Source of the DNA: an uncultured virus (IMG/VR IMGVR_UViG_3300035429_000176) | Taxonomy: Duplodnaviria > Heunggongvirae > Uroviricota > Caudoviricetes | Reading direction: 5' to 3' (one strand) | DNA length: 20,000 nt | IMG/VR virus record: IMGVR_UViG_3300035429_000176 | Shown: piece by piece, positions 954 to 20,000 of the stretch | How the letters are laid out: each line of letters begins with the position of its first letter | Numbering within the stretch: the stretch's first letter is position 1 | Translations under genes and position numbers: made by a program | Notes under the pieces: model-generated | What the model saw: only the letters and a program-made list of their open reading frames with translations | Database searches by the model: none | What the model was told of the DNA's origin: nothing

Positions 954-969
954 TTGATTCCTTTCTATA

Positions 970-1176
970 TTATTTTGATTCAACTTTCTGCCATCCAAAC
1001 TTAAAAATGTCTGCTTTAAGACGGGATTCAACATCTATCTTGTTTAAGATATAGCCTTTAGAGTCTACATACTCTCCATCTATGATATATAGATATTGAG
1101 TACCCATTGCTGGAAGATATTTATGGGTTAATTTAGCACCACTTTGCATGGCTTTTATTGCTTCTCCTATATTCAT
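970..1176 (-). CDS. Small phage protein, possibly DUF2829/Tad2-like
   Basis: 68 aa ORF that fills the gap in the operon; N-terminal MNIGEAIKAMQSGAKL and C-terminal DIFKFGWQKVE. Confidence 0.7.
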   Translation of the reverse strand: MNIGEAIKAMQSGAKLTHKYLPAMGTQYLYIIDGEYVDSKGYILNKIDVESRLKADIFKFGWQKVESK

Positions 1177-1188
1177 ATCTAATTTGTT

Positions 1189-1929: not shown

Positions 1930-2086
1930 TTCTGTTCCGATAGAATACAAAATTATCTTCACATTCTCCGTTCTGATGCGTTATATATTCATTGGTGATG
2001 ATTTCGGGGTGTTTTGGCAATCGGTAAACTAATCCTCCATACACCCATTCATCGTTTTTTGAGCGTTTCCCTCTGAATTTTATCAT
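1916..2086 (-). pseudogene. Truncated YopX-family gene (56 aa)
   Basis: Manual translation gives MIKFRGKRSKNDEWVYGGL..., the IKFRGK...EWVYG N-terminus typical of YopX proteins; it stops early, overlapping the MTase start. Confidence 0.65.
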
Positions 2087-2088
2087 TC

Positions 2089-2532
2089 TCATCCTTTACC
2101 TCCTTTCTTCAATTCTGCAATAAGAGCATCGGCAAATTCCACAGAACTTACAGCAACCCCCTCAAAATCTCTCTCTCCAACCAGTACATCTCCATACTGA
2201 TTACTTAATCGCCCTTGCATAGCAGCTTTTGCTATTTCATACCTGCGTTGTTCCCAGTCTATGGCTTTTTCAAATTCAAGTGCTGTTCCGGGTATTTTTC
2301 TACCGTCTTTTGTTATGAATGAACCGCATGAAACCAGCATAGTACCTGAAGGTTCAACATCTATGACCTCGCCGGTAGCCTTTACTTTAGCTTTAAGTTT
2401 TTCAGCAGCTCTCATTTGTCTCGTGTGTTCTGCTACACAAGTTTTACACCTGTTAGGATATGATTTGCTGAACTCTGAAATATGTTTAGTCTTTCCACAT
2501 ACTTCACACTTCTTTACTTCTAAATAATCCAT
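2089..2532 (-). CDS. Phage protein with N-terminal CxxC...CxxC zinc finger
   Basis: CEVC...CKTC; C-terminal IDWEQRRYEIAKAAMQG segment familiar from Bacteroides phage proteins. Confidence 0.8.
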   Translation of the reverse strand: MDYLEVKKCEVCGKTKHISEFSKSYPNRCKTCVAEHTRQMRAAEKLKAKVKATGEVIDVEPSGTMLVSCGSFITKDGRKIPGTALEFEKAIDWEQRRYEIAKAAMQGRLSNQYGDVLVGERDFEGVAVSSVEFADALIAELKKGGKG

Positions 2533-2534
2533 AT

Positions 2535-2717
2535 TTATTTTTTATTTGAATTAATGGTTGTTGGCTCATAGTACTTGCATTTGTCTGTTTCCGGATTGTA
2601 TGCTGGCCATACCCATTGCAAACGTGTATCGGGTGGATCAGGCAAATAGCGTTTACAACTCTTGCGGATTGAGCAGGTAACGCCCGAACAATAACTATAA
2701 TCTGTATTCATCGTCAT
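2535..2717 (-). CDS. Small Cys-rich phage protein
   Basis: C-x4-C-x5-C-KRY...C-KYY pattern; fits the operon spacing; start uncertain (2717 or 2711). Confidence 0.65.
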   Translation of the reverse strand: MTMNTDYSYCSGVTCSIRKSCKRYLPDPPDTRLQWVWPAYNPETDKCKYYEPTTINSNKK

Positions 2718-2733
2718 AATGTTTTTAATTAGT

Positions 2734-3456
2734 TTACTGTTTTCTGAATGACTGCTCATTGCCGAAATTGATGATTAGCATCATTTCACGGAAACGGTCT
2801 GCAATTCGTTCGTCGTAATATTCTGCAATTTCTTTTGCCGTAAGATTGGATGAGACCAGCGTACAGAACTGCTCTTCATAGCGGAAAGACAGCATATCCA
2901 TGGCGGCGGTTACGTAATCGCCATAATGAATGCTTTCTTTCGGTTCGGAGCCGAGTTCGTCGATTGCGAGTATTTCGATTTGGCGCAGCCTTTTGTAGCG
3001 TGCCACATCGGAGGTGTTGTCGCGTGTGGGATTGTTATACGCTTTAGCCAGCAAAACGAGTTCTTTAGCCGATACCATCATGTAGCCGCGTATCGGATAT
3101 GCATCCGCATTGCCGTTATACCCCTCATCAGAGCGCAAGTAGTTTATAAGGTTTTGCAATGCACGCAGAATGGTGGTTTTCCCATTTCCGGCATCGCCGC
3201 AAAGGAACAATCCGAAAGTGGAGGCTTCCGATGTAATCCAATTGGAAATGTCCCAAAGGTGCTTTTTGTATTGTTCGGTGGCATTAAATTCCCTATGCCT
3301 ATGAGCAACTTCCACCCGGCACGCTTCATATAGCATAGCGTAAACTTGCTTGGCGGTATATGGCAATCTAAAACGAGTTACCATATGTTTTCTCTTCATC
3401 AGATTTGAGAAGATTACCTCTGCGTTGATTTCTGCTTTCGGGTCTAACTTTATCAT
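2734..3456 (-). CDS. DnaC/IstB-like ATPase (helicase loader)
   Basis: Walker A GDAGNGKTT, Walker B LAIDELG, SSNL, and YDERIADRFREM; directly downstream of the initiator. Confidence 0.88.
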   Translation of the reverse strand: MIKLDPKAEINAEVIFSNLMKRKHMVTRFRLPYTAKQVYAMLYEACRVEVAHRHREFNATEQYKKHLWDISNWITSEASTFGLFLCGDAGNGKTTILRALQNLINYLRSDEGYNGNADAYPIRGYMMVSAKELVLLAKAYNNPTRDNTSDVARYKRLRQIEILAIDELGSEPKESIHYGDYVTAAMDMLSFRYEEQFCTLVSSNLTAKEIAEYYDERIADRFREMMLIINFGNEQSFRKQ

Positions 3457-4168
3457 CTTTTCTTTTATTTTTATCATTTACAATTCTCAACCATGCGTTG
3501 AAGTGCTGTTTGGCATCCTGTAAGGAAGAATGCCGGTCTTTCCCGTCTGCCAGGCATTGTACCCGGAAGTCGTCAAGACTGCTGCGCAAAGAGGAAATAT
3601 TCGTTGCATGAAGCACTTGTAATTGGTCAAGCCAACACTCGTCTTTTTTCAGTTCGGCAATTTCTTCATCGATAGTCATGGAGTAAGGCTCGTATTGCAG
3701 TTCGTTTTGCACTGTTGTACTACCTTGTATCGTTTGTGGATTGTCATTCTTTCGTGGCAGTTTTTCAGTTTGTTTGGGCTTTCTTTTCTCGATTAGGTTA
3801 TAATCCCCAATATAGCAAACACGACGGCACTGTACGCATATACGACTATACCTTTCCTGAATACCTTTAGAAGTCAATACTTTTTCAGCGTCAAACAATT
3901 CTTTTGAAAACAACCCCAGTGTCAGGCAGGTTTTGATTACTTCTGATATATATGCCTCCTCAAATCCCGTAAGCTCCGAGCAAATGAAAGGCAACTCTTT
4001 ATCCCACTTCATATAATACCCACTCTTGTAGATATTGCAGAGCAGCAGAGCATATACCGTTATAGCTTTTCCACCTTGATACTTGATTAGTTTTCTTATT
4101 TTAAGGTCGTTAAATATATCTATATCCAGAGGGAAATAGTCAAGACCTTTTTTAAAAGTTCGTGCCAT
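3368..4168 (-). CDS. DUF4373-like phage replication initiator
   Basis: MAR..KKGLDYFPLD N-terminus and LTSKGIQERY; paired with the DnaC-like gene. Confidence 0.85.
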   Translation of the reverse strand: MARTFKKGLDYFPLDIDIFNDLKIRKLIKYQGGKAITVYALLLCNIYKSGYYMKWDKELPFICSELTGFEEAYISEVIKTCLTLGLFSKELFDAEKVLTSKGIQERYSRICVQCRRVCYIGDYNLIEKRKPKQTEKLPRKNDNPQTIQGSTTVQNELQYEPYSMTIDEEIAELKKDECWLDQLQVLHATNISSLRSSLDDFRVQCLADGKDRHSSLQDAKQHFNAWLRIVNDKNKRKDDKVRPESRNQRRGNLLKSDEEKTYGNSF

Positions 4169-4179
4169 ATCTGACTTTT

Positions 4180-4593
4180 TTAAAATTCATTTCTCAAATA
4201 ATCATCCACTTCACGAATGAAATCATCCAGCGAAAAGCACAGAACATATTTGTATTCTCCGTTTTCACATATTATCTTTTGCCATTCTTTTTGTGATGGA
4301 GATTGATAGCCACCTTTCTTTTTCATTTCAATGAGCAGCGCACCATAATCACGATTGCTTTTCAACAGAATCAAATCGGATACACCGGCTGTTACGCCCT
4401 CAGCTTTCAATTTGCCACCTGTAACAGTATCACGTCTTCCTCCGTTCGGCACAGCAAACAACCGGCCTTTTAACTTTGGATACTTCAAATTGAACCACTC
4501 TACGCAAGAGCATTGTATGCGATGTTCCTCATCGTCATATTTTTGCTTCTTTTTTCGTTTCCTTTCCATTTGAAGCATTTCCTCAAGTGTCAT
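4180..4593 (-). CDS. VRR-NUC domain nuclease
   Basis: EEHRIQ, FAVPNGG, AGVSDL, IEMK, QSPSQKEW (PD-(D/E)xK pattern). Confidence 0.88.
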   Translation of the reverse strand: MTLEEMLQMERKRKKKQKYDDEEHRIQCSCVEWFNLKYPKLKGRLFAVPNGGRRDTVTGGKLKAEGVTAGVSDLILLKSNRDYGALLIEMKKKGGYQSPSQKEWQKIICENGEYKYVLCFSLDDFIREVDDYLRNEF

Positions 4594-5200
4594 TGTCGCT
4601 TTGCTTTTCGGGTGTAACAATGGTGTCTTTTCCGGTCTTGTCTACTACAACTTTTTTCCCACCAACGGTTATCGTTGTCCTGCAACCTTCGGGGAGAGAT
4701 TGTATGAAATTTCGTACAACAGGCGAATTGGCATTTTCACTGATAGTATCCGTAATGGACTCATCTGCGGCATATGGATAGACATCCATAATGGCAGTTT
4801 CCGCTACCGATGCAATTTGGTAGTCAGCCATTGTACCTTTCATACCTTCGTCCAATTTCTTCACTGCGTCACGCAAGTCGGCAACTTGTACCAACACCTG
4901 GGTAGACGTTTTTTTCTCAGCACCGCTTTTCTCGTCCAATGTGATGAAAACCAGCTTGCACTTGAACCAACGGTCGGCAGATTCGTCTTCGCATGGGAAC
5001 AGTTCGCTGTAGTTGGCACGTTTGATGTCAGATACCGTGAATTCTCCTGAAATAAACGGTGTCATCTCTTCGATGATACGCGCTTCCGCTTCGGTGAAGC
5101 TGAGCGCGTCAACCAGATAGGGTTCCGTTACTTTCTTGTTCATTCCGTTATCCATTGTCTTTTCATAACGGATTTTACATTCAAACCACGTGTGCATCAT
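4583..5200 (-). CDS. DUF4494-like protein
   Basis: WFECKIRYEK...YLVDALSFTEAEARI signature of a conserved Bacteroidetes family. Confidence 0.8.
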   Translation of the reverse strand: MMHTWFECKIRYEKTMDNGMNKKVTEPYLVDALSFTEAEARIIEEMTPFISGEFTVSDIKRANYSELFPCEDESADRWFKCKLVFITLDEKSGAEKKTSTQVLVQVADLRDAVKKLDEGMKGTMADYQIASVAETAIMDVYPYAADESITDTISENANSPVVRNFIQSLPEGCRTTITVGGKKVVVDKTGKDTIVTPEKQSDNDT

Positions 5201-5472
5201 GAGTTCATTTTTTCTTTGAGTTGTTTACTGACTACAAGTTTTACTGTTCGTCTAGCCGGAATGACTACCGTTGTTCTCTTGTAGATATTACGGGCTTTCC
5301 TTTCTTTTGTGATATAAGTCTTGATAGTGCCAAAACCACGTATATAGACACTTTCACCTTTACAAAGTGCTTTCTCAATAGCATCAAAAGCACAATCTAC
5401 GGCTTGAATAGCCTGTGAACGACTAATAGTCGTATTGTTGATAACATGTTCAACGATCTCAATTTTTCTCAT
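5197..5472 (-). CDS. hup: HU family DNA-binding protein
   Basis: 91 aa; GESVYIRGFGT, ERKARN, IPARRTVK. Confidence 0.9.
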   Translation of the reverse strand: MRKIEIVEHVINNTTISRSQAIQAVDCAFDAIEKALCKGESVYIRGFGTIKTYITKERKARNIYKRTTVVIPARRTVKLVVSKQLKEKMNS

Positions 5473-5560
5473 TGTTTTTATTTTTATTAAAATGATAGAT
5501 CACTATTGTTTGGTCTACAATTCTCAGTTTTGTATTGAGTATTTTCAACTGATTTTTTCA

Positions 5561-5740
5561 TTATGATTCTTGATTTAAATCCGCAGATAGAAGTAGGATG
5601 ATGGCTGCAATGGCAAAACTCATTCCTAAAATGGCATACGTATATGCTTTAGAGGATTTGGATTCTAAAGCAAAATGAAAGTTAACAGCAAAAATGATGA
5701 TATTCAAAACAATAAATATTATATCAAAATAGATTCTCAT
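5561..5740 (-). CDS. Small two-TM membrane protein (59 aa, not in the ORF track)
   Basis: Manual translation MRIYFDIIFIVLNIIIFAVNFHFALESKSSKAYTYAILGMSFAIAAIILLLSADLNQES*. Confidence 0.55.
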   Translation of the reverse strand: MRIYFDIIFIVLNIIIFAVNFHFALESKSSKAYTYAILGMSFAIAAIILLLSADLNQES

Positions 5741-5788
5741 ATTACTTTATTTACTGGTTACTATTATTTTTCCTCATAATCACAAATG

Positions 5789-6538
5789 CTAATAGGGATT
5801 CTTGTTAAATGTTAACGAAAGCCCATTTGTAGCGGCTGTTATTTCTATCTCTGGATATAATCTTTCTATTCCATGGATAAACTCCGTAGCATTGCTGTTA
5901 TTGTCGGACAGATGCAGGAGTAGAATGTTGCATACTTGAGACAGGTCATTGGCTTGCAATGTGAGGAGACAGTTATCATAGGACATGTGCGACTTAATGG
6001 TGCGTTCGTAGCGTTTCTTGTCAATGCACCCGGCAGTGAAATTTGCATCAAGAATTTCCTTGCTATAATTGCACTCCAACATTACATTGTTAAGACCGGG
6101 AAATTTGTATTTTAGGAAATAGGTGTCTGTGGCAAACAGCACTGTTCCGCACTCTTCATGACGGATGAGGTATCCGTAAGGTTCCGCAGCATCATGTTGT
6201 ACAGGGAACGGTATCACTCTAAATCCATTTATCACAACTTGTTCGAATGGTAACAGCCCTTTTGCCCAATAGCTGGAAGAGAAACCAAGCGCATGTTTTG
6301 TGCCTTGACTCATATAGCAAGGTATGCAGGCGTTTATAAAATCGCCCACACATTTGGCATGGTCGCCATGCTCATGGCTGACGATACAACCAACAATGCT
6401 GTTTAGATTGAAGTCAAGAACCTTTTTTACTTTGTTGAACTTAACTCCAGCTTCCACTGCAAGTACCTCACCAGTCTTTTCAGACTGGAAGAGGTAACAG
6501 TTGCCTGATGATGAAGAACCTAATACATGAAGTTTCAT
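5789..6538 (-). CDS. MBL-fold metallo-hydrolase (probable phage exonuclease)
   Basis: LGSSSSGNCY, SHEHGDH, HDAAEP, FATDT, LECNY, LLHLS. Confidence 0.92.
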   Translation of the reverse strand: MKLHVLGSSSSGNCYLFQSEKTGEVLAVEAGVKFNKVKKVLDFNLNSIVGCIVSHEHGDHAKCVGDFINACIPCYMSQGTKHALGFSSSYWAKGLLPFEQVVINGFRVIPFPVQHDAAEPYGYLIRHEECGTVLFATDTYFLKYKFPGLNNVMLECNYSKEILDANFTAGCIDKKRYERTIKSHMSYDNCLLTLQANDLSQVCNILLLHLSDNNSNATEFIHGIERLYPEIEITAATNGLSLTFNKNPY

Positions 6539-6549
6539 TTCAAATAGGA

Positions 6550-7440
6550 TTAATAGCCCGGTCCATCATCCTCGGTTGAGGCTTGGTTTTCGGTACTTGT
6601 TTCACCTTGGGTCTCTTTAATTTCTCCTGTTTCAGGGTCAACACCTGCCGGAACTTCATTGGAAACCGGAGCTGCTGCATCATCAAAACTGATAGTGCCT
6701 TTGTTGGCTTGCGTGGAAATTTCTTTCGCAACCTGTTCTGTAACATCGACATAATCGGCGTCCTCTACATTTTCTTCAACGGTACGCATACCCATTGACA
6801 GTTCCGGTGAGTATGTATAGCACCAGAACGAGGCGGCACGGTAACGTAACATCTGTTCGGGCATAGTACGCCACTTGCTGCCGTTTTTGCTATACCAACC
6901 CTCATCAATCGCCATTTGTATGGTAACGGCTGTACCACGTAAGGCAAGTGGTGATTTTGATGTAACCGGTTTTCCGTTCTCATCATGCGTAACACCTTTA
7001 GGAGTAGTCCATGCCACACACTTGACATTTGCCACACCGTTATTGCAAACTCCACTTGATGTCAATTCAAACTTCAGTGGTTCAAAGCGTCCACAAGTAT
7101 TGATAGTGGCAATTAGGAACTTGGACGACCAAGATGGGCGACCATATACAATGTACAAGTTCTGCATTACCATAAGAGGGGATGCTCCAATGCGTGTGGC
7201 CACATCGAATGCGATTACGCAGTTGGCTACTGCTTCGGCTTCAGAGACCGTTTTTTTAGGTCCTTCTCCGGTCTTACCGCCAACAACACCGCCAATGCGG
7301 TAACTTTCGGGTACAAGACTGGAATTGGCAAACATGGTGGAGAAACGGTTGAGCGTTTCAATGGTTGTCGGGTCAAAGAAGTTGATGCCAGCAGGAACGT
7401 TACTTTGATGTGTAACCGGTGCGATTTGTCTTTCGTTCAT
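6550..7440 (-). CDS. recT: RecT/Redbeta-like single-strand annealing protein
   Basis: PLMVMQNLYIVYGRPSWSS, SKWRTMPEQMLRYRAASF, acidic C-terminal tail. Confidence 0.8.
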   Translation of the reverse strand: MNERQIAPVTHQSNVPAGINFFDPTTIETLNRFSTMFANSSLVPESYRIGGVVGGKTGEGPKKTVSEAEAVANCVIAFDVATRIGASPLMVMQNLYIVYGRPSWSSKFLIATINTCGRFEPLKFELTSSGVCNNGVANVKCVAWTTPKGVTHDENGKPVTSKSPLALRGTAVTIQMAIDEGWYSKNGSKWRTMPEQMLRYRAASFWCYTYSPELSMGMRTVEENVEDADYVDVTEQVAKEISTQANKGTISFDDAAAPVSNEVPAGVDPETGEIKETQGETSTENQASTEDDGPGY

Positions 7441-7467
7441 AATTCTAATAATTAAAGATTTAACTAT

Positions 7468-9438
7468 TTATTTTACTGTTAGTTGACTGTCTGTTGTAAC
7501 CTGCAAGAATATCATTTGTGCGTTGGAAGCAATGAATGTATTCACGCTTTCGGCACGGTCAATGAACATTGGAGCATAGACTTCGTAATGCCTTGCCAAT
7601 GTGTTGGTGATGTCAATACCTGCGTTCACTTGCTTTGCTGTATTGCACGTACCATAGGACACACCATCAATTATAGGAATACATACTTCGTATTCGTTTC
7701 CGTCAAGAGTGGTATCGAAAAGTTTCCAGTGTACCATGCCAAACAGCGAGTTCAAACGGCTCTCACAATCATCAATGCGAGCTTTGGCAAACTTAGCAGC
7801 TATATATTCACGTTTCTCTATGTCGGCTATCTTCTGTGCGAGTTCACGACCTTCCTTTTCAAGACGCTCTATTTCTTTATCATAGTTGGCGATAATGGTA
7901 CGGTTGTTTAGTTGGATTTCCAAGTTCTTAATAGCAGATTTCACCAACTCGGCACGTTCGGACAGTTCGGTATCTGTCTGAGTATATGTGATATTTGCTA
8001 TTTCTTTTTCTATCTCATCCAAACGTTTCAGGTTTGCTGCATACGCAGGCAGCTCGTTTTCGTTGATGGCGGACGGTGTTGCTTTCGGGGTGGATTTCAG
8101 ACGATCATACAGCCCTGCAATACATTCGTCAATGGCAGTAATCTTTTTGGAATGCTCTACAAGTTCTTCATTACGCCTGTTTAATTCCTCTCGGTATGAT
8201 TCGACTTGTGTCGACAGGGATTTTCCACGTGATTGATTCTCTTTGAGCCTGTTTTGTTTATATTCTTCAAACTTTTGGAGAGCGTCTTGTATCATATTGT
8301 CGGGTAAAGGCTGACCGCAATGAGGACAGATATTATCACCGGTGTACTGTGTGGCACGAATGGATGCCCATTCGGAACGTAATTCTTCAAGTCTGCTTGT
8401 TGTTCCAGTTATTTCTTCGTTCAAATACTTGATGCGTTCTTTTGCACGGGTAATGTCTATATTGCAATCCGATCGTTCGGAATGAATATTCTTCAACTCT
8501 TTCTCGATTTCATTACGTGTTTCGTTCTGCTTATCGGCTTCCTCCTGACGACTTCTCCTTTCTGCGGCAAGAATATCCTTCTGTTGCTGTTCGATTTGCC
8601 GTTTTTCACGGTTCAGCGCAGCTTTTTTATCGATGGCAGATTGCTTGCGAGCATCTTCAGAATGCAGAAGTTCGTTTATTTCTTCCAGCTCTTTCTTTTT
8701 GTCGGTGAGCATTTCTTCCAATAAGTTCCAATCCTCGGCTTCTGGTTTCATCTTGTCCGTTTGGTCGATACGTGGCTTGATTTCATCCGCTTGCATTTTT
8801 AGACGTTTTTTCTCTGCGGCAATCTGCCGACGATAATCCGCCAATGATTTGCCACTCAACATGTCTACGAGAGCGGTAAATTCTGCATTTCCCTGCGCCA
8901 ATTCGTTGTCTGTTTTGGCTCTGGCAATGGACATTAACACTTCACGTTGAACATCTTGTTTTAACGATAGGAAATACTCGGTATTGGTTAGCATCTTGAA
9001 AAGGTTCTCATCAATGATTTCGGCATTTATACGTTCCTTATACTCATTGACACGAACAGGTACGCCGTCCCATGTGCATTCGGTGACATTCCCCTTGAAC
9101 ACTTCCTCTACTTGTCCACGAGGTTTGACCCATTGCTCCTTATACTCTCGTTTGATGGTAATTTCCGTTCCATCAACGACTAATGTTCCCTCTACGGAGC
9201 ATTCACAATGCTGTAGGGGATTGCCCTTTTCGTCTGTGGTGCGCAAGTTGAAGTCTTTACGGTCTTTGCTGTCCTTGCCGAAAAGCAGCCAACAGAACGC
9301 ATCCATGTGCCTGGACTTGCCGAGACCGTTACGACCACAGATACGTGTAACAGTGCCATCTGTATGGAACTGTGTTGTCCTTTCTTTTTCTCCACGCCAG
9401 TTGCGAAGCGTGATTGATTTTAGCTGAATTGCTTTCAT
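7468..9438 (-). CDS. Rad50/SbcC-like coiled-coil ATPase
   Basis: Walker A GRNGLGKS, long coiled coils, CPHC zinc hook, C-terminal MFIDRAES Walker B. Confidence 0.88.
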   Translation of the reverse strand: MKAIQLKSITLRNWRGEKERTTQFHTDGTVTRICGRNGLGKSRHMDAFCWLLFGKDSKDRKDFNLRTTDEKGNPLQHCECSVEGTLVVDGTEITIKREYKEQWVKPRGQVEEVFKGNVTECTWDGVPVRVNEYKERINAEIIDENLFKMLTNTEYFLSLKQDVQREVLMSIARAKTDNELAQGNAEFTALVDMLSGKSLADYRRQIAAEKKRLKMQADEIKPRIDQTDKMKPEAEDWNLLEEMLTDKKKELEEINELLHSEDARKQSAIDKKAALNREKRQIEQQQKDILAAERRSRQEEADKQNETRNEIEKELKNIHSERSDCNIDITRAKERIKYLNEEITGTTSRLEELRSEWASIRATQYTGDNICPHCGQPLPDNMIQDALQKFEEYKQNRLKENQSRGKSLSTQVESYREELNRRNEELVEHSKKITAIDECIAGLYDRLKSTPKATPSAINENELPAYAANLKRLDEIEKEIANITYTQTDTELSERAELVKSAIKNLEIQLNNRTIIANYDKEIERLEKEGRELAQKIADIEKREYIAAKFAKARIDDCESRLNSLFGMVHWKLFDTTLDGNEYEVCIPIIDGVSYGTCNTAKQVNAGIDITNTLARHYEVYAPMFIDRAESVNTFIASNAQMIFLQVTTDSQLTVK

Positions 9439-9468
9439 CTACTTTGATTTTTAATAGTGAAAAAATAG

Positions 9469-9555
9469 TGGGAGGAACAGGATTTGAACCTGTGTCCTGC
9501 TGCATCTTGGCCATTTGGGTACGTACCGCCGCTCTATCCGCTGAGCTATCCTCCC
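9469..9555 (-). ncRNA. tRNA-like RNA with an aberrant anticodon arm
   Basis: Acceptor GGGAGGA/TCCTCCC, D arm GCTC-AGCGGATA-GAGC, T arm ACAGG-TTCAAAT-CCTGT; no canonical 7-nt anticodon loop. Confidence 0.8.
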
Positions 9556-9558
9556 TTA

Positions 9559-9828
9559 TCATTTGAAATAGTCTTGTTGTAACCTTTGTAGTGTACGCAG
9601 TTCGATTGTGCGGTATTCAATTTTGCCCGGACGCTTGCAGGGGGTTATTTTACCCTGCTTGCGCCATCTATCCACATTGCCACGCCCAAACATAGCGTAT
9701 GCTTTTCGCTGGCTGACCATTTCGGGGTCATTGTGTGTATCGGCAAGCATACGGACTACAGAGGACGCTACATCGCGGACGAAAGTGTCATAAGTAACGG
9801 ATTTATCGGGAAAATCAATAGTGAGCAT
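9559..9828 (-). CDS. Small phage DNA-binding protein (Xis/HTH-like)
   Basis: SQRKAYAMFGRGNVDRWRKQGKI resembles an Xis-type winged helix. Confidence 0.7.
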   Translation of the reverse strand: MLTIDFPDKSVTYDTFVRDVASSVVRMLADTHNDPEMVSQRKAYAMFGRGNVDRWRKQGKITPCKRPGKIEYRTIELRTLQRLQQDYFK

Positions 9829-9839
9829 AGGATTACGGA

Positions 9840-10052
9840 TTAAAGTGAATACTCTGCACGATAATTTTCATCGGTTTTAATGAAATATGTAAGCACTTTT
9901 ATTAGGGAACGTTTAGAACCGGGCTTGGCAATAGAGTCAACCAGACTTTCTCTCTTTTGCTTGTCTGTAGCAATAAAGATGTAGCCCACGTGTCTTGCTT
10001 CCGGTTTAAGAGGCTTGATTTGAGAATTTAATTTTTTGAAATTGATAGACAT
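9840..10052 (-). CDS. Hypothetical phage protein
   Basis: Start MSINFKK (10052) avoids overlap with the upstream gene. Confidence 0.65.
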   Translation of the reverse strand: MSINFKKLNSQIKPLKPEARHVGYIFIATDKQKRESLVDSIAKPGSKRSLIKVLTYFIKTDENYRAEYSL

Positions 10053-10071
10053 GATATTGTAAGTTAAGAGG

Positions 10072-10269
10072 TTATTTGTTTTCATTTTGAAACTCCATCC
10101 ATGATATACGTACCAGTTTCCATGTGAGAAAGATGAATACAGCTGATACAAGATAGCCAATGAACGATGCGATGTTTCCAAGTATGATATGTGCCACAAT
10201 GCTGACAACCACCGCAAAAAGCATGATGCAGGATAGTATCAGTTGTGAAATATTTACAAATTTGTTCAT
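10072..10269 (-). CDS. Small two-TM membrane protein
   Basis: 65 aa with two hydrophobic segments; follows the cro-like gene. Confidence 0.65.
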   Translation of the reverse strand: MNKFVNISQLILSCIMLFAVVVSIVAHIILGNIASFIGYLVSAVFIFLTWKLVRISWMEFQNENK

Positions 10270-10281
10270 GATGATTACAAA

Positions 10282-10473
10282 TTACGATATTCTGATTACT
10301 GTTATGATACGCTTTTCTCGGTCCGTTTCTGTCTGGTACTTACGATTCAGGATAAGTCCGAGGTCGGAAGCCTGAGCACGGACGCTCTTAGTCTTTTCAA
10401 TGGGGAAAGTAACCGCTTTACCTACTTTCAAATCCGTTAAAGTTGGACGTACTTTTACTTGATTTTCTGCCAT
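10282..10473 (-). CDS. Cro-like early regulator
   Basis: 63 aa basic protein, first gene of the leftward operon, divergent from the repressor; call is positional. Confidence 0.65.
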   Translation of the reverse strand: MAENQVKVRPTLTDLKVGKAVTFPIEKTKSVRAQASDLGLILNRKYQTETDREKRIITVIRIS

Positions 10474-10513
10474 TTTATTTGTTTTTTATGGGTTATTGTT
10501 TAACTTTATAGTG

Positions 10514-10539
10514 CAAAGATAATCAATCTACTTGATTAT
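10514..10539 (-). promoter_or_regulatory. Leftward promoter -7 element overlapped by a palindromic operator
   Basis: TATCTTTG on the minus strand (10514-10521) matches TAnnTTTG; perfect inverted repeat ATAATCAA-N5-TTGATTAT (10519-10539). Confidence 0.7.
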
Positions 10540-10586
10540 AAGAGTAAATATACTGATTTAACAAGTAAATTAACTATTATTAAAAT

Positions 10587-10970
10587 ATGGAAACCATAAA
10601 CGACAGGCTGCAATGGATTGTCAATGAAAAATTTGATGGCAATAAAGCTGCTTTTGCAAAAGCCATTGGAATCGTGCCAACAAGTATATCTAATTATTTA
10701 GGAAAGCAAAGAGCGTCTAAACCTTCCGTTGATATGATTGCTAAAATCGTCAATGTACTTAACGTGGACGCTCGTTGGCTTCTCACAGGGGAAGAGACAG
10801 CAAAAGTTGAGCAAGTTTTAACTCATGGTGATTTCTCACCGGCTTCAATCCATGGGGATGCGGTGAATGGCAACATGGATATTGCTGTTTTGCAAGAAAA
10901 GGTGAAACATTTAGAGGAACTTCTTGCAGAAAAAGAAAGATTGATAAGTGTTTTGATGGAACGGAAATGA
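10587..10970 (+). CDS. CI-like XRE-family HTH repressor
   Basis: NKAAFAKAIGIVPTSISNY HTH, VDARWLLTGE, C-terminal coiled coil; no S24 peptidase domain. Confidence 0.9.
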   Translation: METINDRLQWIVNEKFDGNKAAFAKAIGIVPTSISNYLGKQRASKPSVDMIAKIVNVLNVDARWLLTGEETAKVEQVLTHGDFSPASIHGDAVNGNMDIAVLQEKVKHLEELLAEKERLISVLMERK

Positions 10971-12031
10971 GAAAGGGTTTAAGCTGTATAGGTCTTTGGT
11001 TGTGTCTGCTTTTAATTATAGGGTGTTCAAACTCTGATAGCCAACCTGAGAATGTTGAGGTATATTTGGAAGCTAATACCGACCGTGTTTTATTAAAGGA
11101 AGAAGGTGGTACAGCTTACATAAATATTGCTTCCAATACGAGGTGGACGATACTAGTTGAAAATGATGAAATACCGGTTATTGATTTGGATATTACTCCA
11201 CTTGCAGGTGACGGAGATGGTGCTATTAAAATAACTTATGGTCGTGAGATAAACAAAGTACAGTGTGAACACGCTACTCTTATTTTTTATTATTATTCTG
11301 AAGGAAAAAGAGTAAGTAAGGAAGTGATTTTGACTAGGCAAGAAAATGATGGTAATAAAGATGAAGAGGGTTGGAAAACTTTTACAACTTTTGCAAAAGC
11401 TACAAATTCTTTTCCTGCTACATTTAAGACCATGGATGGGTATAAATTAATACCCACAGCTATTTCGATTTTCTCAACACCTGGTGATGTGTATTATATT
11501 GCAGGTCAGTATAAAGATTCTATGTTTGATATAGAAAAGAAAGAAATACATCTAGAGCTTTTGAGTGAACCTGTTTGTATAAGTGGATTATCAATTGGAT
11601 TTGAGAGTGTTGATGCATACCCTTCAAATGCTCCTTTTCATTCATCTAATTATAATGAAGTTAAACCTGTACTTTTTGATGAACATACTATAATTATTCC
11701 TATGTTTTTCTGGGTTGCTAGTACGACTGATGCAATACAAGAAGAGTTAAAACGGCATTCCTTTATGTTGGTGTATGATTCTAATGGAAATTCTGATAGT
11801 AATTTGGGGGTGTGTTTGTTGCATAATGTTTCGGATGATGAATATAGGATAAGAACATTATATACTGTACAATATTGTGCGTTTGATATAGCGTCTGCAA
11901 TTAGCCGATTTGAATCGGAGAAAGGAAATAAACCTAGTAGAATGACAATAGAGTATAAAGTGAATTCATTAAGTGATCGTTTAGAGGATGCTAGGATTGA
12001 AAAATATACTTTAGATTATAAATTTCAATAG
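10967..12031 (+). CDS. Lipoprotein with a BACON-like N-terminal and NigD-like C-terminal region
   Basis: Signal peptide with lipobox LIIG-C; GGTAYINIASNTRWTI is BACON-like; AT-rich; ATGA overlap with the repressor. Confidence 0.75.
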   Translation: MRKGLSCIGLWLCLLLIIGCSNSDSQPENVEVYLEANTDRVLLKEEGGTAYINIASNTRWTILVENDEIPVIDLDITPLAGDGDGAIKITYGREINKVQCEHATLIFYYYSEGKRVSKEVILTRQENDGNKDEEGWKTFTTFAKATNSFPATFKTMDGYKLIPTAISIFSTPGDVYYIAGQYKDSMFDIEKKEIHLELLSEPVCISGLSIGFESVDAYPSNAPFHSSNYNEVKPVLFDEHTIIIPMFFWVASTTDAIQEELKRHSFMLVYDSNGNSDSNLGVCLLHNVSDDEYRIRTLYTVQYCAFDIASAISRFESEKGNKPSRMTIEYKVNSLSDRLEDARIEKYTLDYKFQ

Positions 12032-12091
12032 AAAAACGCTGCTAACAAATAGTTGTACAATATTATAGAACTCGTTGAAAAGCAACGATAA

Positions 12092-12124
12092 TTAGCTGCG
12101 GCGCAGGCAGCAATCGAGGAATAA
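12092..12124 (+). other. Putative att core: orphan 3' end of a ppdK-like gene
   Basis: TTAGCTGCGGCGCAGGCAGCAATCGAGGAATAA = LAAAQAAIEE*, a GC-rich patch preceded by an in-frame stop; resembles the PPDK C-terminus RVPIARLAAAQAA. Confidence 0.65.
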
Positions 12125-12319: not shown

Positions 12320-13522
12320 ATGGCTACATTTAAAGCAGTTGTAAGAAAGAAAAGAGCCGATGGCTTTTATCCGGTGTACATTCGCATCGTTCACCGTTCC
12401 AGAATGGGTTATATCAAAACTGATAAGCTCATTACAGATAAGCAAATTCTAAAGTCTGGAGAAATTAAAGATGCGGTAGTAAATGAATATTGTTCAAGGG
12501 AAATCCTGAAATACACCGATATGGCGAATCGCAAGGATATATCCGAATACTCTGTTTCAGAACTGATAGAGTATCTTACTCACGTAGAGGATAATGTTTG
12601 CTTTAGCGAATATGCAACCATGCATATCAATCGTATGATTTGCGAGGGTCACGAACGTAATGCGAAGAATTATCGTCTTGCTGTTAATCATTTGGAGCGT
12701 TATCTTGGAACAACCCATGTGATGTTTAATCACTTGACATCAACCGTACTAAAGAAATGGATTGCATCCCTTTCTTTAACCAATAGAGCCAAAGAAATGT
12801 ATCCGACTTGTATAAGACAAATTTTTAAATGTGCGATAGCGGAATATAATGATGAAGAACGTGATATAATACGTATCAAGTTCAATCCATGGCACAAAGT
12901 TCAAATACCCAAGTCAGATACAACACTAAAACGTGCTATTAGCGCAGAGGCTTGTCGTGAGTTTTTCAATCGTCCGTTGCCTATAAGCAAAATGATTTCT
13001 TCCCTGCCAGAATTGGGAAGAGATATTGCTCTTCTTTCTCTTTGTTTGGGAGGTATCAATTCTGTTGATTTGTACGAACTCAAAAAGAAAGACTACCAAA
13101 ATGGAGTCATTGGCTATAAAAGAGCAAAGATTAGAAACAGTCGCCGTGATGAAGGTTATATGGAAATGAGAGTTGAACCGTTTATCCAATCCACGTTTGA
13201 CAAATACCTCTCTACTGATGAAAATGAAGAATATCTGTTTAATTTCCACAAGCGTTACAGCAATTCCGACAGTTTCAATGCGAATGTAAACATCGGAATA
13301 CGAAAGATTTGTCTGGATATGGGTATGAGTAAAGAAGATTGTTATTGTTTCTATACATCCCGGCACACGTTCGCTACGATGATGCTTACCCTCGGTGCGG
13401 ATCTTTATACCACGAGCAAACTGCTCGGCCATGCCAACGTGAAGACCACGCAGATATACGCGAAAATCGTTGACAGCAAGAAGACGGAAGCCGTCAATCT
13501 GGTAGATAAGGTGTTTGATTAG
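12320..13522 (+). CDS. int: Tyrosine recombinase/integrase (apparently chimeric)
   Basis: Arm-binding-like N-terminus GFYPVYIRI, SAM-like core, then YTSRHTFAT, LLGH and TTQIY catalytic motifs. Confidence 0.93.
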   Translation: MATFKAVVRKKRADGFYPVYIRIVHRSRMGYIKTDKLITDKQILKSGEIKDAVVNEYCSREILKYTDMANRKDISEYSVSELIEYLTHVEDNVCFSEYATMHINRMICEGHERNAKNYRLAVNHLERYLGTTHVMFNHLTSTVLKKWIASLSLTNRAKEMYPTCIRQIFKCAIAEYNDEERDIIRIKFNPWHKVQIPKSDTTLKRAISAEACREFFNRPLPISKMISSLPELGRDIALLSLCLGGINSVDLYELKKKDYQNGVIGYKRAKIRNSRRDEGYMEMRVEPFIQSTFDKYLSTDENEEYLFNFHKRYSNSDSFNANVNIGIRKICLDMGMSKEDCYCFYTSRHTFATMMLTLGADLYTTSKLLGHANVKTTQIYAKIVDSKKTEAVNLVDKVFD

Positions 13523-13682: not shown

Positions 13683-15014
13683 ATGATATTCAAAAGGAAA
13701 ATATATAATGAGCTTCTGCAATGGAAGCGGACGGATGAAGGCAGGACTGCCCTATTGATACAGGGTGCGAGACGTGTCGGGAAATCCACCATCGCTGAAG
13801 AGTTTGCAACTAACGAATACGAAACCCATATACTGGTGGATTTTGCCGCATGTTCGACAGAAATTCGGGATTTGTTCAATGACGTGTCCGACCTTAACCG
13901 AATTTTCATGCGCCTGCAACTGGAATACGCTGTCGAGTTGAAGGAACGGAAGTCTGTCATCATCTTTGATGAAGTCCAGCTTGCACCCAAAGCGAGGCAG
14001 GCGATCAAGTATCTTGTGAAAGACGGAAGGTATGATTACATAGAGACCGGCTCGTTGATTTCAATCCGAAAGAATGTCAAGGACATCCTGATTCCAAGCG
14101 AGGAGGTCAAACTCCACATGTTTCCCATGGATTATGAGGAGTTCAGGTGGGCACTGGGAGATACGGCCACTATCAGGCTGCTCCAAGGCTGTTTCCACGA
14201 CAAAACATCCTTGGGAGATGCTACGAACCGCAAACTGATGCGTGATTTCCGGTTGTATATGCTTGTCGGTGGCATGCCGCAGGCCGTGGCAGCTTATCTT
14301 GAAACCAACAATCTGGAAAAAGTAGACAGTGTGAAGCGCTCCATAATAACCTTGTATGAGGATGACTTCAACAAAATCGACCCGACGGGAAACGCTTCCA
14401 AGATATTCCGCCAGATTCCGGCCCAGTTAACGGGCAATGCCAACAGGTATTTGGCATGGAGCGCAACGGATGGCACGCGTAATTCCGCACTGGCAGAGAT
14501 ACTTTCCGAAATCAGGGAATCGATGGTGGTCAACATGGCTTACCATGCCAATGACCCGAGTGCGGGAATGGCATTGCACCAAGACCCCAACAAATACAAG
14601 ATGTTTGCAGGCGATACGGGGCTGTTCGTCACTCTCGCATTCTGGGACAGCAAGTTTACCGACAACACAATATACCATAAGCTGCTTGCTGACAAGTTGA
14701 GCACAGACCTCGGGTATGTCTATGAGAATGTTGTCGCACAGATGCTAAAGGCTTCCGGGCACGAATTGTACTATTATACTTTTCCCACCGGCAGCGGCAA
14801 GCATAACTATGAGGTGGACTTTCTGATTGCGGATGGTGACAAAGTAAGCCCCGTCGAAGTCAAGTCATCCGGTTATAAGGCGCATACATCGCTGGATGCC
14901 TTTTGCGGCAAGTTCTCTTCCCGGATAAGGAACAAATATCTGGTTTACACGAAAGATATGCGCAAGGACGGCGATGTCTTGTATCTTCCCGTATATATGA
15001 CAATGTTTCTATGA
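13683..15014 (+). CDS. AAA_14-type ATPase with a DUF4143-like/PD-(D/E)xK C-terminus
   Basis: GARRVGKS, IIFDEVQ, ETGS, VGGMP, DTGL, EVDF...PVEVKS. Confidence 0.88.
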   Translation: MIFKRKIYNELLQWKRTDEGRTALLIQGARRVGKSTIAEEFATNEYETHILVDFAACSTEIRDLFNDVSDLNRIFMRLQLEYAVELKERKSVIIFDEVQLAPKARQAIKYLVKDGRYDYIETGSLISIRKNVKDILIPSEEVKLHMFPMDYEEFRWALGDTATIRLLQGCFHDKTSLGDATNRKLMRDFRLYMLVGGMPQAVAAYLETNNLEKVDSVKRSIITLYEDDFNKIDPTGNASKIFRQIPAQLTGNANRYLAWSATDGTRNSALAEILSEIRESMVVNMAYHANDPSAGMALHQDPNKYKMFAGDTGLFVTLAFWDSKFTDNTIYHKLLADKLSTDLGYVYENVVAQMLKASGHELYYYTFPTGSGKHNYEVDFLIADGDKVSPVEVKSSGYKAHTSLDAFCGKFSSRIRNKYLVYTKDMRKDGDVLYLPVYMTMFL

Positions 15015-17784: not shown

Positions 17785-18222
17785 ATGACAGAAGACAACA
17801 AGCAAGACATAGAATTTCCGTCCGGCGGTAGCCGTACCGAATACATCGGTGCCAAAGTCACCGCGGAACAGAAACAGTACATCCGCCGCCTTGCCGCCGA
17901 GTGCGGCATGACCGTCAGCAGCTACGTGCTGGCAAGGGCTTTCAATTACAGACCGAAAGCGAGGCTGACGGCAAGGCAGGAGGCGGTCATGGAGACCCTT
18001 ATAGGATGCCGCAGCGACCTCGTGAACTACACGTCCGCGCTCCGTGGCATGAACCCCGAAAAGCGCAGACAGATGTTTAACAGTTACCCTTTCATGCTCG
18101 AATGGCTCAAGGAACTCGGCAGGCTGGCCGAGCGTGTCACGGACGTGCTCGACAAGGTACGGTTTTCCAACCGCCTGCCCGACGGGACAAGGAACGGTGA
18201 AGACGGGGAGGGCGAGCCATGA
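17785..18222 (+). CDS. MobC-like ribbon-helix-helix relaxosome accessory protein
   Basis: YIGAKVTAEQKQYIRRLAAECGMTVSSYV; ATGA overlap with the relaxase. Confidence 0.82.
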   Translation: MTEDNKQDIEFPSGGSRTEYIGAKVTAEQKQYIRRLAAECGMTVSSYVLARAFNYRPKARLTARQEAVMETLIGCRSDLVNYTSALRGMNPEKRRQMFNSYPFMLEWLKELGRLAERVTDVLDKVRFSNRLPDGTRNGEDGEGEP

Positions 18223-19454
18223 TAGGGAAAGCGAAATCCATCTCCCACGGGATAAATGACATCAGGTACATCACGGGAGAATCGAGGAACAAGAAACATC
18301 CCGAACGCATCTTCCACGTGGGGGACACCCTGCTGACGCCCGGTCTGGATGCCACGGGTATATGGGATTCCATGCGGCTGACGCTGGAGAAGTCCAAACG
18401 GGTCAGAAATTCCGTCATCCGAATCGAGGTCAGCCCCGCGCCGGAACACACCAAAGACTTTACCATTGACGACTGGCAAAGGTTGTGGGACGACTTCACG
18501 GATGAGTTCGACAACATCGAACTGCTTGACAAGAACGGCAAGACCTATTCCCCGAAAACCGACCTCAAAGGCAGCAAGGGCACGGTGTGGCTGCATCTGG
18601 AATCCAAGAGCGGCATTCCCCACCTTCACGGCGCGTTCTGCCGTATTGATGAACAGGGAAATATCAACAACGACCACGACATACACCTGCGGGCACAGCG
18701 GGCAGCCGAGCGTGTGGCCTTGAAACGGGGCTGGACGACTGCCGCCGAAGTACGTGAGACGAACATCGGGCAGGTGAACCGGGACTGCATGGAAACCCTG
18801 CAATCCATGAAAAGCTGGTCATGGGACGAGTACGTGGCCAGACTCCGGAGCAAGGAATATGAGTTTTGGGAGCTGCGCGACAACAAGAAGATATTGCGCG
18901 GTTACGTGCTGAAGAAAGGCAACGCTAGATACAAGGCTTCCGAACTCGGCAGGGGGCGCAACCTCATGGCGACCAAGCTCGAAAGCACGTGGAAAAAACT
19001 GCACGCGGCTCCCAAGGCAAGGACTGTTTCGACACAGCCCGCCGCAAGGAAACCGGTACCGGCTACACCTCGGACAATTCCGGTTCACGCGCAAGGAACG
19101 GCACCGGTTCCGCAATACACCGGCTATCGTCCCGGCACCAGCCCGTACCATATCGACATTGACGGGGAAAGCCGCAGGTTCTTCATTCCCGATGAAGCAT
19201 TGGACGTATTCAATGACGAGTTCGACTACCGGGAGACAGCCAACAGCCGTGACCTCACGGACATGGCGGCGGCACTTTTCGTCGGGATGCTCGATACTCC
19301 GGCGGTTCCTTCGGGAGGTGGCGGGGGCGGTGATTCCAACGACCTGCCTTGGGGAAGACGCGAGGACGAGGACGAACGGGAATGGGCACGCCGGTGCGCC
19401 CGTGAAGCGGAAAGGGTGATCGGAAAGAAACCGAGGACAGGACGAAAAAGATAA
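18219..19454 (+). CDS. Relaxase/mobilization nuclease
   Basis: N-terminal Tyr (IRYI), IRIEVSP, HUH motif WLH..SKSGIPHLHG, C-terminal GGGGG..DLPWG. Confidence 0.88.
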   Translation: MIGKAKSISHGINDIRYITGESRNKKHPERIFHVGDTLLTPGLDATGIWDSMRLTLEKSKRVRNSVIRIEVSPAPEHTKDFTIDDWQRLWDDFTDEFDNIELLDKNGKTYSPKTDLKGSKGTVWLHLESKSGIPHLHGAFCRIDEQGNINNDHDIHLRAQRAAERVALKRGWTTAAEVRETNIGQVNRDCMETLQSMKSWSWDEYVARLRSKEYEFWELRDNKKILRGYVLKKGNARYKASELGRGRNLMATKLESTWKKLHAAPKARTVSTQPAARKPVPATPRTIPVHAQGTAPVPQYTGYRPGTSPYHIDIDGESRRFFIPDEALDVFNDEFDYRETANSRDLTDMAAALFVGMLDTPAVPSGGGGGGDSNDLPWGRREDEDEREWARRCAREAERVIGKKPRTGRKR

Positions 19455-19460
19455 CAGCCT

Positions 19461-20000
19461 ATGAATAAAAAATTCGATTTCTCGGAAATAGACGGGGTAC
19501 TTCCGGCTGCCGAAAAGATGCAGGAAAGAGACCGCATGACCGACGCGCTGGAAAACAATTATGAAGCCGTCCGCATTCTTAGTGCCAACGTGGAAAAGCT
19601 TGAAAACAGACTTTCGGAAGCCCTGCCCAAAATGGACGGGGCTGTTTCTTCCCTGCGTGGGGCGAGCACGGTCACAGTCGGCGAGGAAGCGAGAAAGACG
19701 CTTGAACAGGAGGGAGAGAAAATCTGCCGGAAGATGGCTGACAGGATGGAACGGGAGTGCGCAAGGCTGGCCGGACGCCTCGCGACGAATGACCGTGTGC
19801 TTATCTCCGCAACCGCTTTCTGGTGCATGATATTAACAGTCATTATTCTGTCTGCTTTTTTTGCTTGCATAATTGCAGCTAACAGTTATCTATTCCAGAA
19901 CGCATTGTTATGGAAAATAGCAAGTTGTTTTGTTGGTTTATGGATATTGTGTATGATAATTACCGTCTTCATTTGTCGTAAACTTGAATGCTCTAATTAG
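19461..20000 (+). CDS. Coiled-coil protein with two C-terminal TM helices (mobilization-associated)
   Basis: 179 aa directly after the relaxase; hydrophobic C-terminus. Confidence 0.7.
   Translation: MNKKFDFSEIDGVLPAAEKMQERDRMTDALENNYEAVRILSANVEKLENRLSEALPKMDGAVSSLRGASTVTVGEEARKTLEQEGEKICRKMADRMERECARLAGRLATNDRVLISATAFWCMILTVIILSAFFACIIAANSYLFQNALLWKIASCFVGLWILCMIITVFICRKLECSN

What the first reader, a model, noticed from the sequence alone, without database searches (positions are those of the whole stretch)
12320..13522. In-frame chimeric integrase fused at the catalytic RHT motif
Seen: codon usage switches from AT-rich to GC-rich third positions at about 13355-13370 (TAT ACA TCC CGG CAC ACG). 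From recall, the N-terminal ~345 aa belong to a Bacteroides integrase family that normally continues YTFRHTW.T.AQND...AMNH. The tail SRHTFATMMLTLGADLYTTSKLLGH..VKTTQIYAKI is typical of mobilizable-element integrases. Inference: recombination between two integrase genes at the shared motif joined the phage side to the mobilizable element. The hybrid has binding domains from one parent and the catalytic His/Tyr from the other. It could be inactive, trapping the elements, or could mobilise a composite.
Basis: partly seen in the sequence, partly recalled or inferred. Interest (0 to 1): 0.7.

Follow-up and report, generated by a model that had tools for sequence, protein, structure and literature searches.

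The report
Hybrid integrase left by integrase-targeting element
Two unrelated mobile elements in a gut bacterium are spliced together, in frame, inside the catalytic motif of their integrase genes, at the exact spot where a third family of mobile elements habitually inserts, so this hybrid gene is probably a scar of elements that parasitise and reshuffle other elements' integrases.

Summary
The chimera is real. Codons 1-345 are 97% identical to a 498-aa integrase. The tail and the next 6.6 kb are 99.8% identical to a tandem-integrase mobilizable element. The exact protein is on 48 contigs and one Logan contig bridges the joint. The N-half is not the prophage's integrase: it follows a ppdK att copy (12093-12124) and, in close relatives, heads a PvCTn-like conjugative element. 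New here: the joint lies on a 5-base window (codons x-x of H-x-x-R-H) where a third, two-integrase Bacteroidales element family inserts. Searched with element ends alone, 17 of 21 left and 10 of 13 right flanks are integrase halves cut at this register. One genome shows the pre-excision intermediate of a chimera. The window's 5 bases match neither parent as read. Best reading (0.6): adjacent deletion by such an element, then excision. No third element is seen in this contig, and one base past the window is ICE-type. Hybrid activity is untested. This scan reported similar targeting on other DNA (e1-6723388, e1-757615).

The parts
1..12092 (.). Right arm of a prophage (replication, recombination and repressor genes); a neighbour, not part of the chimera
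   Evidence: PHROGs hits for DnaC-like loader, replication initiator, RecT-like, SbcC-like and repressor proteins
6550..7440 (-). Prophage RecT-like single-strand annealing protein (bears on the rival mechanism)
   Evidence: phrog_561, E=1.5e-61
12093..12124 (+). att core: copy of the 3' end of ppdK that separates the prophage from the next element; 12098-12117 matches 19 of 20 positions of the published PvCTn attB motif
   Evidence: In genome loci the same core is the end of a PEP-utilizers_C gene directly before this integrase family; contigs of X15 and X23 and locus L011 part from the window at 12093-12124; motif from PMC11005914, window letters
12320..13354 (+). N-half (codons 1-345) of a ppdK-targeting, PvCTn-like conjugative element integrase
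   Evidence: 97% aa identity to L001; in L139/G003 the intact 498-aa gene is followed by NikA-like, relaxase, ParA, TraG, TraM and coupling-protein genes
13355..13359 (+). 5-base patch (first five bases of the two x codons of Y/H-x-x-R-H); differs from the ICE parent at 2 positions and from both known alleles of the mobilizable-element parent at 3-4
   Evidence: same register as the variable 5 bases at insertions of the third element family
13360..13365 (+). Ambiguous zone (Arg348, start of His349); base 13363 is ICE-type, while the 8 closest mobilizable-element copies have another base
13366..13522 (+). 3' tail of intB, second tandem integrase of the mobilizable element; supplies His371 and Tyr380
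   Evidence: 0 differences over the 156 bases compared in the 8 closest loci; alignment A2
13683..15014 (+). AAA_14 + DUF4143 ATPase, cargo of the mobilizable element
   Evidence: Pfam; same protein in L016
16286..16528 (+). HTH_17 excisionase-like gene of the mobilizable element
   Evidence: Pfam E=2.8e-13
17785..19454 (+). NikA-like mobilisation gene (17785-18222) and relaxase (18219-19454)
   Evidence: Pfam (the relaxase hit is 24.0 bits, just under the 24.6 cut-off)
19461..20000 (+). Last backbone gene in the window; at 19999 the contig leaves the sequence shared by L016, X21 and X23, so the element's far end is not seen

Best explanation
Shown: the gene is an in-frame join of a PvCTn-like ICE integrase (codons 1-345) and the last ~53 codons of intB of a tandem-integrase mobilizable element, present as one stable allele. 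Shown: a separate family of Bacteroidales elements (called Z here; two arm-domain tyrosine integrases at one end, 12-18 kb, one composite of 32.6 kb) uses the DNA for x-x-H-[5 bases]-R-H of other integrase genes as its target; its two ends mimic those codons and the 5 bases between are exchanged. Shown: intB is a frequent target, and Z can be left between the N-half of one integrase and the C-half of another. Inferred: in an ancestor of this strain such an element sat in intB; its end recombined with the like motif in the ICE integrase gene, removing what lay between (ICE integrase tail, probably part of the ICE, the mobilizable element's left end, intA and 5' intB); the element then excised and sealed the halves in frame with a foreign 5-base patch. 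Two insertions followed by homologous deletion and excision would give the same end. Inferred: the hybrid keeps a full set of catalytic positions but loses about 100 conserved C-terminal residues and is more likely impaired than active (about 0.3 active); the mobilizable element has lost its left end and is trapped; the prophage is bounded by its own att and unaffected.
For: Z right-end DNA alone (205 bases, no target) in 301 genomes: 13 matches, 10 of 13 flanks are integrase C-termini starting at Pfam PF00589 positions 131-134. Z left-end DNA in 250 genomes: 21 matches, 17 of 21 flanks are integrase N-parts by Pfam, all ending in x-x-His at the same register. Of 100 loci with the intB tail, 7 have a Z end and 2 a second end type directly before it. 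Record G004 has intB split by 32.6 kb at the patch. The 5 bases differ between the two ends in 6 of 7 records read at both ends. Footprint: intact intB alleles L016/L035 and L047/L102/L104 differ at 5 of 1145 bases, 4 of them in the patch (p about 2e-9). Intermediate: G336 has the same Z and C-half as G415 (99.98% over 19,874 bases) but a precise 1,276-base deletion joins the Z end to the motif of the upstream integrase, intact in G415, G001 and G589. Other in-frame hybrids at the motif: L098, L062, L099, P0291. The ICE-integrase family is also cut at this register in proteins: 8 of 15 listed members of the P0066 cluster end YT-xx-KHHTISI with two different xx; P0036, 1 of 120 homologs, reads YTSRHTW. 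Both non-ICE changes of the window lie inside the patch. A 5-base non-homologous crossover is known for IntDOT (PMC2034462).
Against: No Z element or end is seen in this 27-kb contig; the rest of the genome was not available. Base 13363, right of the patch, is ICE-type whereas the 8 closest mobilizable-element copies differ, which a clean swap does not predict. The ICE site has Tyr (TAT) where all 17 tabulated Z targets have CA at -3/-2, so it is at best a secondary site. No DNA-level Z insertion in the ICE integrase was found: 0 of 151 loci and 0 pattern hits; the evidence there is protein only and that end sequence is not the Z end. L098 and L062 cross over in a 26-base identical stretch and may be ordinary homologous recombinants or misassemblies. 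The X15 copy of the element aligns from 13355 with only 2 differences, so an allele close to the window's patch may exist; its letters were not shown.
Confidence: 0.6

Rival explanations
1. Homeologous or microhomology recombination between the two integrase genes at their conserved motif, for example by the neighbouring prophage's RecT-like protein, with patchy repair. No third element needed. This is closest to the first reader's idea.
For: ICE-type base at 13363 and element-type bases from 13366 put a crossover in a CCG-CA microhomology; a RecT-like gene lies at 6550-7440; lambda Red promotes recombination between diverged genes (PMC2327257, listing and start of abstract only).
Against: The parents match only 14 of 21 bases at the motif and 52-54 diagonals between the two genes reach that score, best 16 of 21; no shared word of 10 bases; base 13357 matches neither parent as read; the joint coincides with a demonstrated site-specific hotspot.
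Confidence: 0.25
2. Insertion rather than deletion: a circle carrying the mobilizable element (with or without Z) recombined once into the ICE integrase gene, so the reciprocal hybrid (intB N-half plus ICE tail) sits at the element's far end and nothing was lost.
For: The far end is off the contig, so nothing excludes it; split-and-rejoin of integrase genes is known for archaeal suicidal integrases (PMC8371274 passages).
Against: One exact reciprocal pattern found 0 matches in the metagenome collection (weak, it fixes one patch); none of the 120 listed proteins with the intB N-half was flagged with an ICE-type tail; the element's normal left end lies upstream of intA, not inside intB.
Confidence: 0.11
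3. Assembly artefact or a naturally evolved full-length family.
For: All 14 runs with every sampled word are flagged as possible sources of this DNA, so they may be one strain; only contigs, no raw reads, were laid.
Against: 48 contigs from four sources, six studies over seven years, no 10-base shared word; 0 of 120 homologs and 0 of 151 loci share the tail.
Confidence: 0.04

Closest known systems
PvCTn-like conjugative transposons at ppdK (PMC11005914, passages read)
   Same: attB motif in the 3' end of ppdK (19 of 20 positions), integrase next to the att, tra/mob genes behind it in the intact relative; the paper also notes other elements with related integrases at this site
   Different: Here the integrase tail and whatever followed are replaced by a mobilizable element; direct identity to BVU3359 was not tested
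Tandem-integrase mobilizable transposons MTnPi1-3 of Prevotella intermedia (PMC4755523, section 3.2.3 read whole, other passages and supplement hits)
   Same: Two integrase genes in tandem, relaxase, an att with 5 free bases; the paper records one CTn copy inserted in an integrase gene
   Different: MTnPi1 att is TTAC-N5-AA in hypothetical genes and the CTnPi2 att is a different 11-mer; no habit of hitting the HxxRH codons is described in what I read; sequence identity to these elements was not tested
CTnDOT / IntDOT recombination with a 5-base non-homologous crossover (PMC2034462 passages; PMC8138268 passages)
   Same: Conserved bases on one side, then 5 bases that vary from site to site; arm-binding, core-binding and catalytic domains in both Z integrases
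   Different: IntDOT consensus is TTTGC-N5; Z uses the His codon of integrase genes, has two integrases, and both ends mimic integrase codons. The label IntDOT-like for Z proteins is recalled, not tested by alignment
Archaeal suicidal integrases (SSV1, pTN3, pT26-2) and their chimeric int(N)/int(C) model (PMC8371274 passages)
   Same: Integrase genes split at an att site and halves of different origin rejoined
   Different: There the att lies in the element's own gene and chimeras come from homologous recombination between related elements; here a third element cuts other elements' genes and the halves are from distant families (about 30% identity)
RIT elements (PMC3414803 passages; earlier scan note e1-757615)
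   Same: Multi-integrase elements that land in other mobile-element genes; the scan note reports the same motif as target
   Different: Three recombinases, about 3.5 kb, mostly Proteobacteria; the passages read name radC and a transposase as targets, not HxxRH codons

Membership tests
Tyrosine recombinase (hybrid protein) | PF00589 catalytic and SAM-like core-binding domains | tested here: met
   PF00589 39.6 bits, PF13102 27.5 bits, both over cut-off
Tyrosine recombinase (hybrid protein) | Catalytic positions R, K, H-x-x-R, H/W, Y in place | tested here: inconclusive
   R348, H371, Y380 align; box I has Asn and HxxR has Tyr as in the whole parent family; spacing R-H and H-Y is one residue shorter each than in the parent; model tail pLDDT under 50
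Tyrosine recombinase (hybrid protein) | Recombination activity | not testable with these tools
   Needs an excision or in vitro assay
   att copy at 12093-12124 lies between phage genes and this gene; relatives at 69-99% identity checked downstream mostly head mob genes, those at 56-61% head other genes, and G003 has a second family member at its start
PvCTn-like ICE integrase (N-parent) | attB motif in the 3' end of ppdK | tested here: met
   19 of 20 positions; host flank is PEP-utilizers_C
PvCTn-like ICE integrase (N-parent) | Followed by T4SS and mobilisation genes | tested here: met
   In G003: NikA-like, relaxase, TraG, TraM, DUF4138, coupling protein; absent from the window itself
PvCTn-like ICE integrase (N-parent) | BVU3432-BVU3433 regulatory pair and similarity to BVU3359 | not tested
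Tandem-integrase mobilizable transposon (C-parent) | Two integrase genes in tandem plus relaxase and mobilisation gene | tested here: met
   L016, 99.8% identical, has both integrases; window keeps NikA-like, relaxase and HTH_17 genes but only the intB tail
Tandem-integrase mobilizable transposon (C-parent) | Both ends and excision | tested here: inconclusive
   Left end seen in L012, L013, L016 at different host sites; right end not determined
IntDOT-type coupling-sequence element (Z family) | Conserved core next to 5 free bases that differ between ends | tested here: met
   CA at -3/-2 in 17 of 17 tabulated flanks; patch differs between ends in 6 of 7 records
IntDOT-type coupling-sequence element (Z family) | Integrase belongs to the IntCTnDOT subgroup by sequence | not tested
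   Domain order fits; no IntDOT sequence was available; PDB search gave only distant recombinases
IntDOT-type coupling-sequence element (Z family) | Excision as a circle; 7-base staggered cut | not testable with these tools
   Only indirect: footprints in intact intB

The most novel reading that the evidence does not exclude
Bacteroidales carry a widespread, apparently undescribed family of two-integrase elements whose target is the catalytic H-x-x-R-H codon run of almost any tyrosine recombinase gene. By inserting they silence rival or helper elements, and by one-ended deletion and excision they splice N-halves and catalytic tails of different integrase families in frame. The window is a finished product across two distant families, and some such hybrids are active, which would make this a site-specific engine of integrase evolution.
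Probability: 0.35. Interest if true: 0.8.

Novelty: new variant of a known kind. Interest (0 to 1): 0.62.

Why it matters
The hybrid alone is one strain's scar. What it points to is larger: an abundant element family in gut Bacteroidales that targets the active-site codons of other elements' integrases. That gives a concrete route by which conjugative and mobilizable elements are switched off, trapped or fused, and a mechanism for in-frame domain shuffling of tyrosine recombinases, whose change of specificity is poorly understood. The att sites can be read directly, so the model is testable with plasmid substrates. It also warns annotators that many truncated integrases ending just after x-x-H-x-x-R-H are interrupted genes, and that an integrase beside a prophage may belong to the next element.

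Tried and rejected
Reciprocal junction: one exact pattern, 0 hits in metagenome contigs; weak test. Window-type tail patterns: 0 hits in genome contigs and viral contigs. DNA for ICE integrases cut at the motif: none (0 of 151 loci broken there; three RHSFAT loci are native). P0038 (cluster of 295) ends just after RH, apparently at a nearby site on the other strand; not counted. P0060 ends in what looks like adapter sequence (recalled); not counted. AlphaFold model of the hybrid: mean pLDDT 69.5, pTM 0.34, residues 345-400 mostly under 50 because the alignment held only ICE-family rows; uninformative. Promoter scan 12000-13700: 5 sites against 7.0 expected; nothing. The 76 bases after 19999 match nothing fetched. 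G270 (L191/L152) also has halves that look non-cognate, but it has two Z copies on draft contigs and may be misassembled; not counted as an intermediate. In one search, 22 or so tail-native/N-foreign proteins were flagged, but most are simply diverged relatives with a conserved tail; only P0291 was checked half by half. Several odd upstream flanks were homopolymer frameshifts or contig ends (L033, L036, L060, L061, L065, L067, L086) and were dropped. Literature: searches gave no paper describing this target habit in Bacteroidales; the TIGER paper was not held, most subscription papers are outside the library, and supplement file 1 of PMC4755523 could not be searched.

Full report
1. Observation. 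The ORF at 12320-13522 is 400 aa and open, with Pfam integrase domains. Third-position G+C rises from 0.34 (118 of 345) to 0.69 (37 of 54) at the joint, p=3.7e-6. The N-part is 97% identical to a 498-aa integrase (L001) that continues YTFRHTWATIAQND. The tail and all DNA to 19999 are 99.83% identical over 6640 bases to L016, a mobilizable element with two tandem integrases, an AAA ATPase, an HTH_17 gene, a NikA-like gene and a relaxase. The window has only the last ~53 codons of the second integrase (intB).

2. It is not an artefact and not a family. The exact protein is on 48 contigs from NCBI, JGI/IMG, Logan and ENA. Fourteen of 24 listed runs, from six studies, hold all sampled words of 12900-13900, but all are flagged as possible sources, so they may be one strain. 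A single contig spans the joint and the parents share no 10-base word. Run X15 holds both parents unfused; X21 and X23 hold the element with its native upstream DNA. None of 120 listed homologs and none of 151 loci, 117 distinct genes with some contigs fetched twice, has this tail.

3. The N-parent is an ICE integrase, not the prophage's. Window 12093-12124 is a copy of the 3' end of a gene that in genome loci is a PEP-utilising enzyme directly upstream of this integrase family. It matches 19 of 20 positions of the attB that PMC11005914 gives for PvCTn-like elements in ppdK (passages). Contigs of X15, X23 and locus L011 part from the window at this core. In the closest relative the intact gene is followed by NikA-like, relaxase, ParA, TraG, TraM and coupling-protein genes, and the same record has a second, 57%-identical family member at its start. 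So prophage and ICE stand in tandem at ppdK, and the fusion joins the ICE to the mobilizable element.

4. The joint sits on a target site of a third element family. Of 100 loci with the intB tail (79 metagenome, 21 viral), 7 have, directly before the tail, the end of a different element with two integrases (Z), and 2 have a second end type. To avoid selection by my tail pattern I searched with Z end DNA alone. Right end, 301 genomes: 13 matches; 10 of 13 flanks are integrase C-termini of varied families starting at PF00589 positions 131-134; L143, L145, L147 are not. Left end, 250 genomes: 21 matches; 20 flanks were long enough to scan and 17 hit integrase domains, all ending in x-x-His; L297, L298, L301 did not hit and L306 was too short. 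The ends mimic the target: F-H codons on one side, R-H on the other. Whole elements measure 12.1, 12.5 and 18.2 kb; in G004 intB is split by 32.6 kb at this point. The 5 bases after the His codon differ between the two ends in 6 of 7 records read at both ends (G221, G001, G415, G270, G336, G552 differ; G004 is the same). This is how IntDOT behaves: a conserved motif and 5 bases that may all differ (PMC2034462 passages). Intact intB alleles carry the expected footprint: 4 of 5 differences over 1145 bases fall in these 5 positions (p about 2e-9 under a uniform spread).

5. Such elements can bridge halves of different genes. G336 and G415 share the same Z and C-half (99.98% over 19,874 bases), but in G336 a precise 1,276-base deletion has joined the Z end to the motif of the next integrase upstream, which is intact in G415, G001 and G589. 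Excision there would leave an in-frame hybrid. Finished hybrids exist: P0291 (302 of 326 residues intA-like, tail 49 of 53 intB-like), L099, and L098/L062, the last two crossing in a 26-base identical stretch and so also open to homologous recombination or misassembly. The ICE-integrase family is hit at the same register in proteins only: 8 of 15 listed members of one cluster of 135 end YT-xx-KHHTISI with two patch variants, and 1 of 120 homologs reads YTSRHTW. No DNA for these was found.

6. The window's own joint. Through 13356 it is ICE. The patch 13355-13359 differs from the ICE parent at two positions and from both known intB alleles at three or four. 13363 is ICE-type; from 13366 it is intB. 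The foreign patch fits a coupling exchange. The base at 13363 does not fit a clean one, and the ICE site has Tyr where 17 of 17 tabulated targets have CA. Plain microhomology is weak: 14 of 21 bases, matched by 52-54 other diagonals between the two genes, though the prophage does encode a RecT-like protein. I put a Z-type adjacent deletion plus excision at 0.6, homeologous recombination at 0.25, single-crossover insertion at 0.11, artefact at 0.04. Deletion versus insertion is not shown: the contig is 27 kb and ends 74 bases past the window.

7. Function (inference). The hybrid has R348 from the ICE side and H371/Y380 from intB, one residue closer at each interval than in the parent, and lacks about 100 C-terminal residues that are well conserved in the family, although shorter relatives of 397-404 codons exist. 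The model of the tail is unreliable. I rate activity at about 0.3. The mobilizable element has lost intA and its left end, so it cannot leave by its own route; its relaxase now lies behind a ppdK att and could in principle be carried if a family integrase acts in trans.

8. Known and new. PvCTn-like integrases, tandem-integrase mobilizable transposons (PMC4755523: section 3.2.3 whole, passages, supplement hits) and IntDOT-type crossovers are known; chimeric integrases are proposed for archaeal suicidal integrases (PMC8371274 passages). Passages of PMC8138268, PMC13597742 and PMC3414803 and ten library searches showed no account of Bacteroidales elements that target HxxRH codons; one CTnPi2 copy in an integrase gene uses another att. 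The library lacks most subscription papers and the TIGER paper. Earlier notes of this scan report like targeting on other DNA; I did not check them, and nothing similar to this window or to the Z integrase was indexed.

Noticed in passing
window:12093-12124; G003 (L139, L262, L280-L284): A prophage and a conjugative element with related integrases stand in tandem at the ppdK att; many viral records show the same tandem, so records classed as complete viruses may be phage plus ICE.
   Followed up: partly
window:19999-20000 and contig bases beyond (L278): The contig leaves the sequence shared by L016, X21 and X23 at 19999 and ends 75 bases later in sequence matching nothing fetched; possibly the end of an insertion sequence.
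   Followed up: partly
L016:17628-21109: After the backbone the element continues, in three sources, into a non-coding stretch that looks like a cobalamin riboswitch (recalled, not tested) and two surface-protein-like ORFs.
   Followed up: no
L046, L049 (before the intB tail); P0038: A second kind of element end sits at the same motif; P0038 (cluster of 295) seems to carry a similar end on the other strand a few bases further on.
   Followed up: partly
L304 (G512:C4:67866): A Z-type end appears inserted in the motif of a Z-type integrase gene, so the family may hit its own kind; both Z integrases keep an H-x-x-R-H site.
   Followed up: no
L012:3481-5700 and L013, L033: The mobilizable element itself inserts with low specificity: in a type I restriction subunit gene and in a traJ-like conjugation gene (labels by eye).
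   Followed up: no
P0030-P0032, P0137: ICE-family integrases fused or cut after ...DFTPAWEL (about residue 392), three of them in frame with a coupling-protein domain; a second possible breakpoint.
   Followed up: no
L189/L337/L338: An 18-kb Z element with a ter-like and vWA gene cluster (by eye) is near-identical in at least three genomes of the genus, which suggests recent transfer.
   Followed up: partly
window:16630: The window lacks 4 bases present in X15, X21 and X23 near the start of ORF 16525-17028, a likely frameshift.
   Followed up: no
L012:15812-21976: A 2054-aa NRPS-like gene and a phosphopantetheinyl-transferase-like gene (by eye) follow the element in this record.
   Followed up: no
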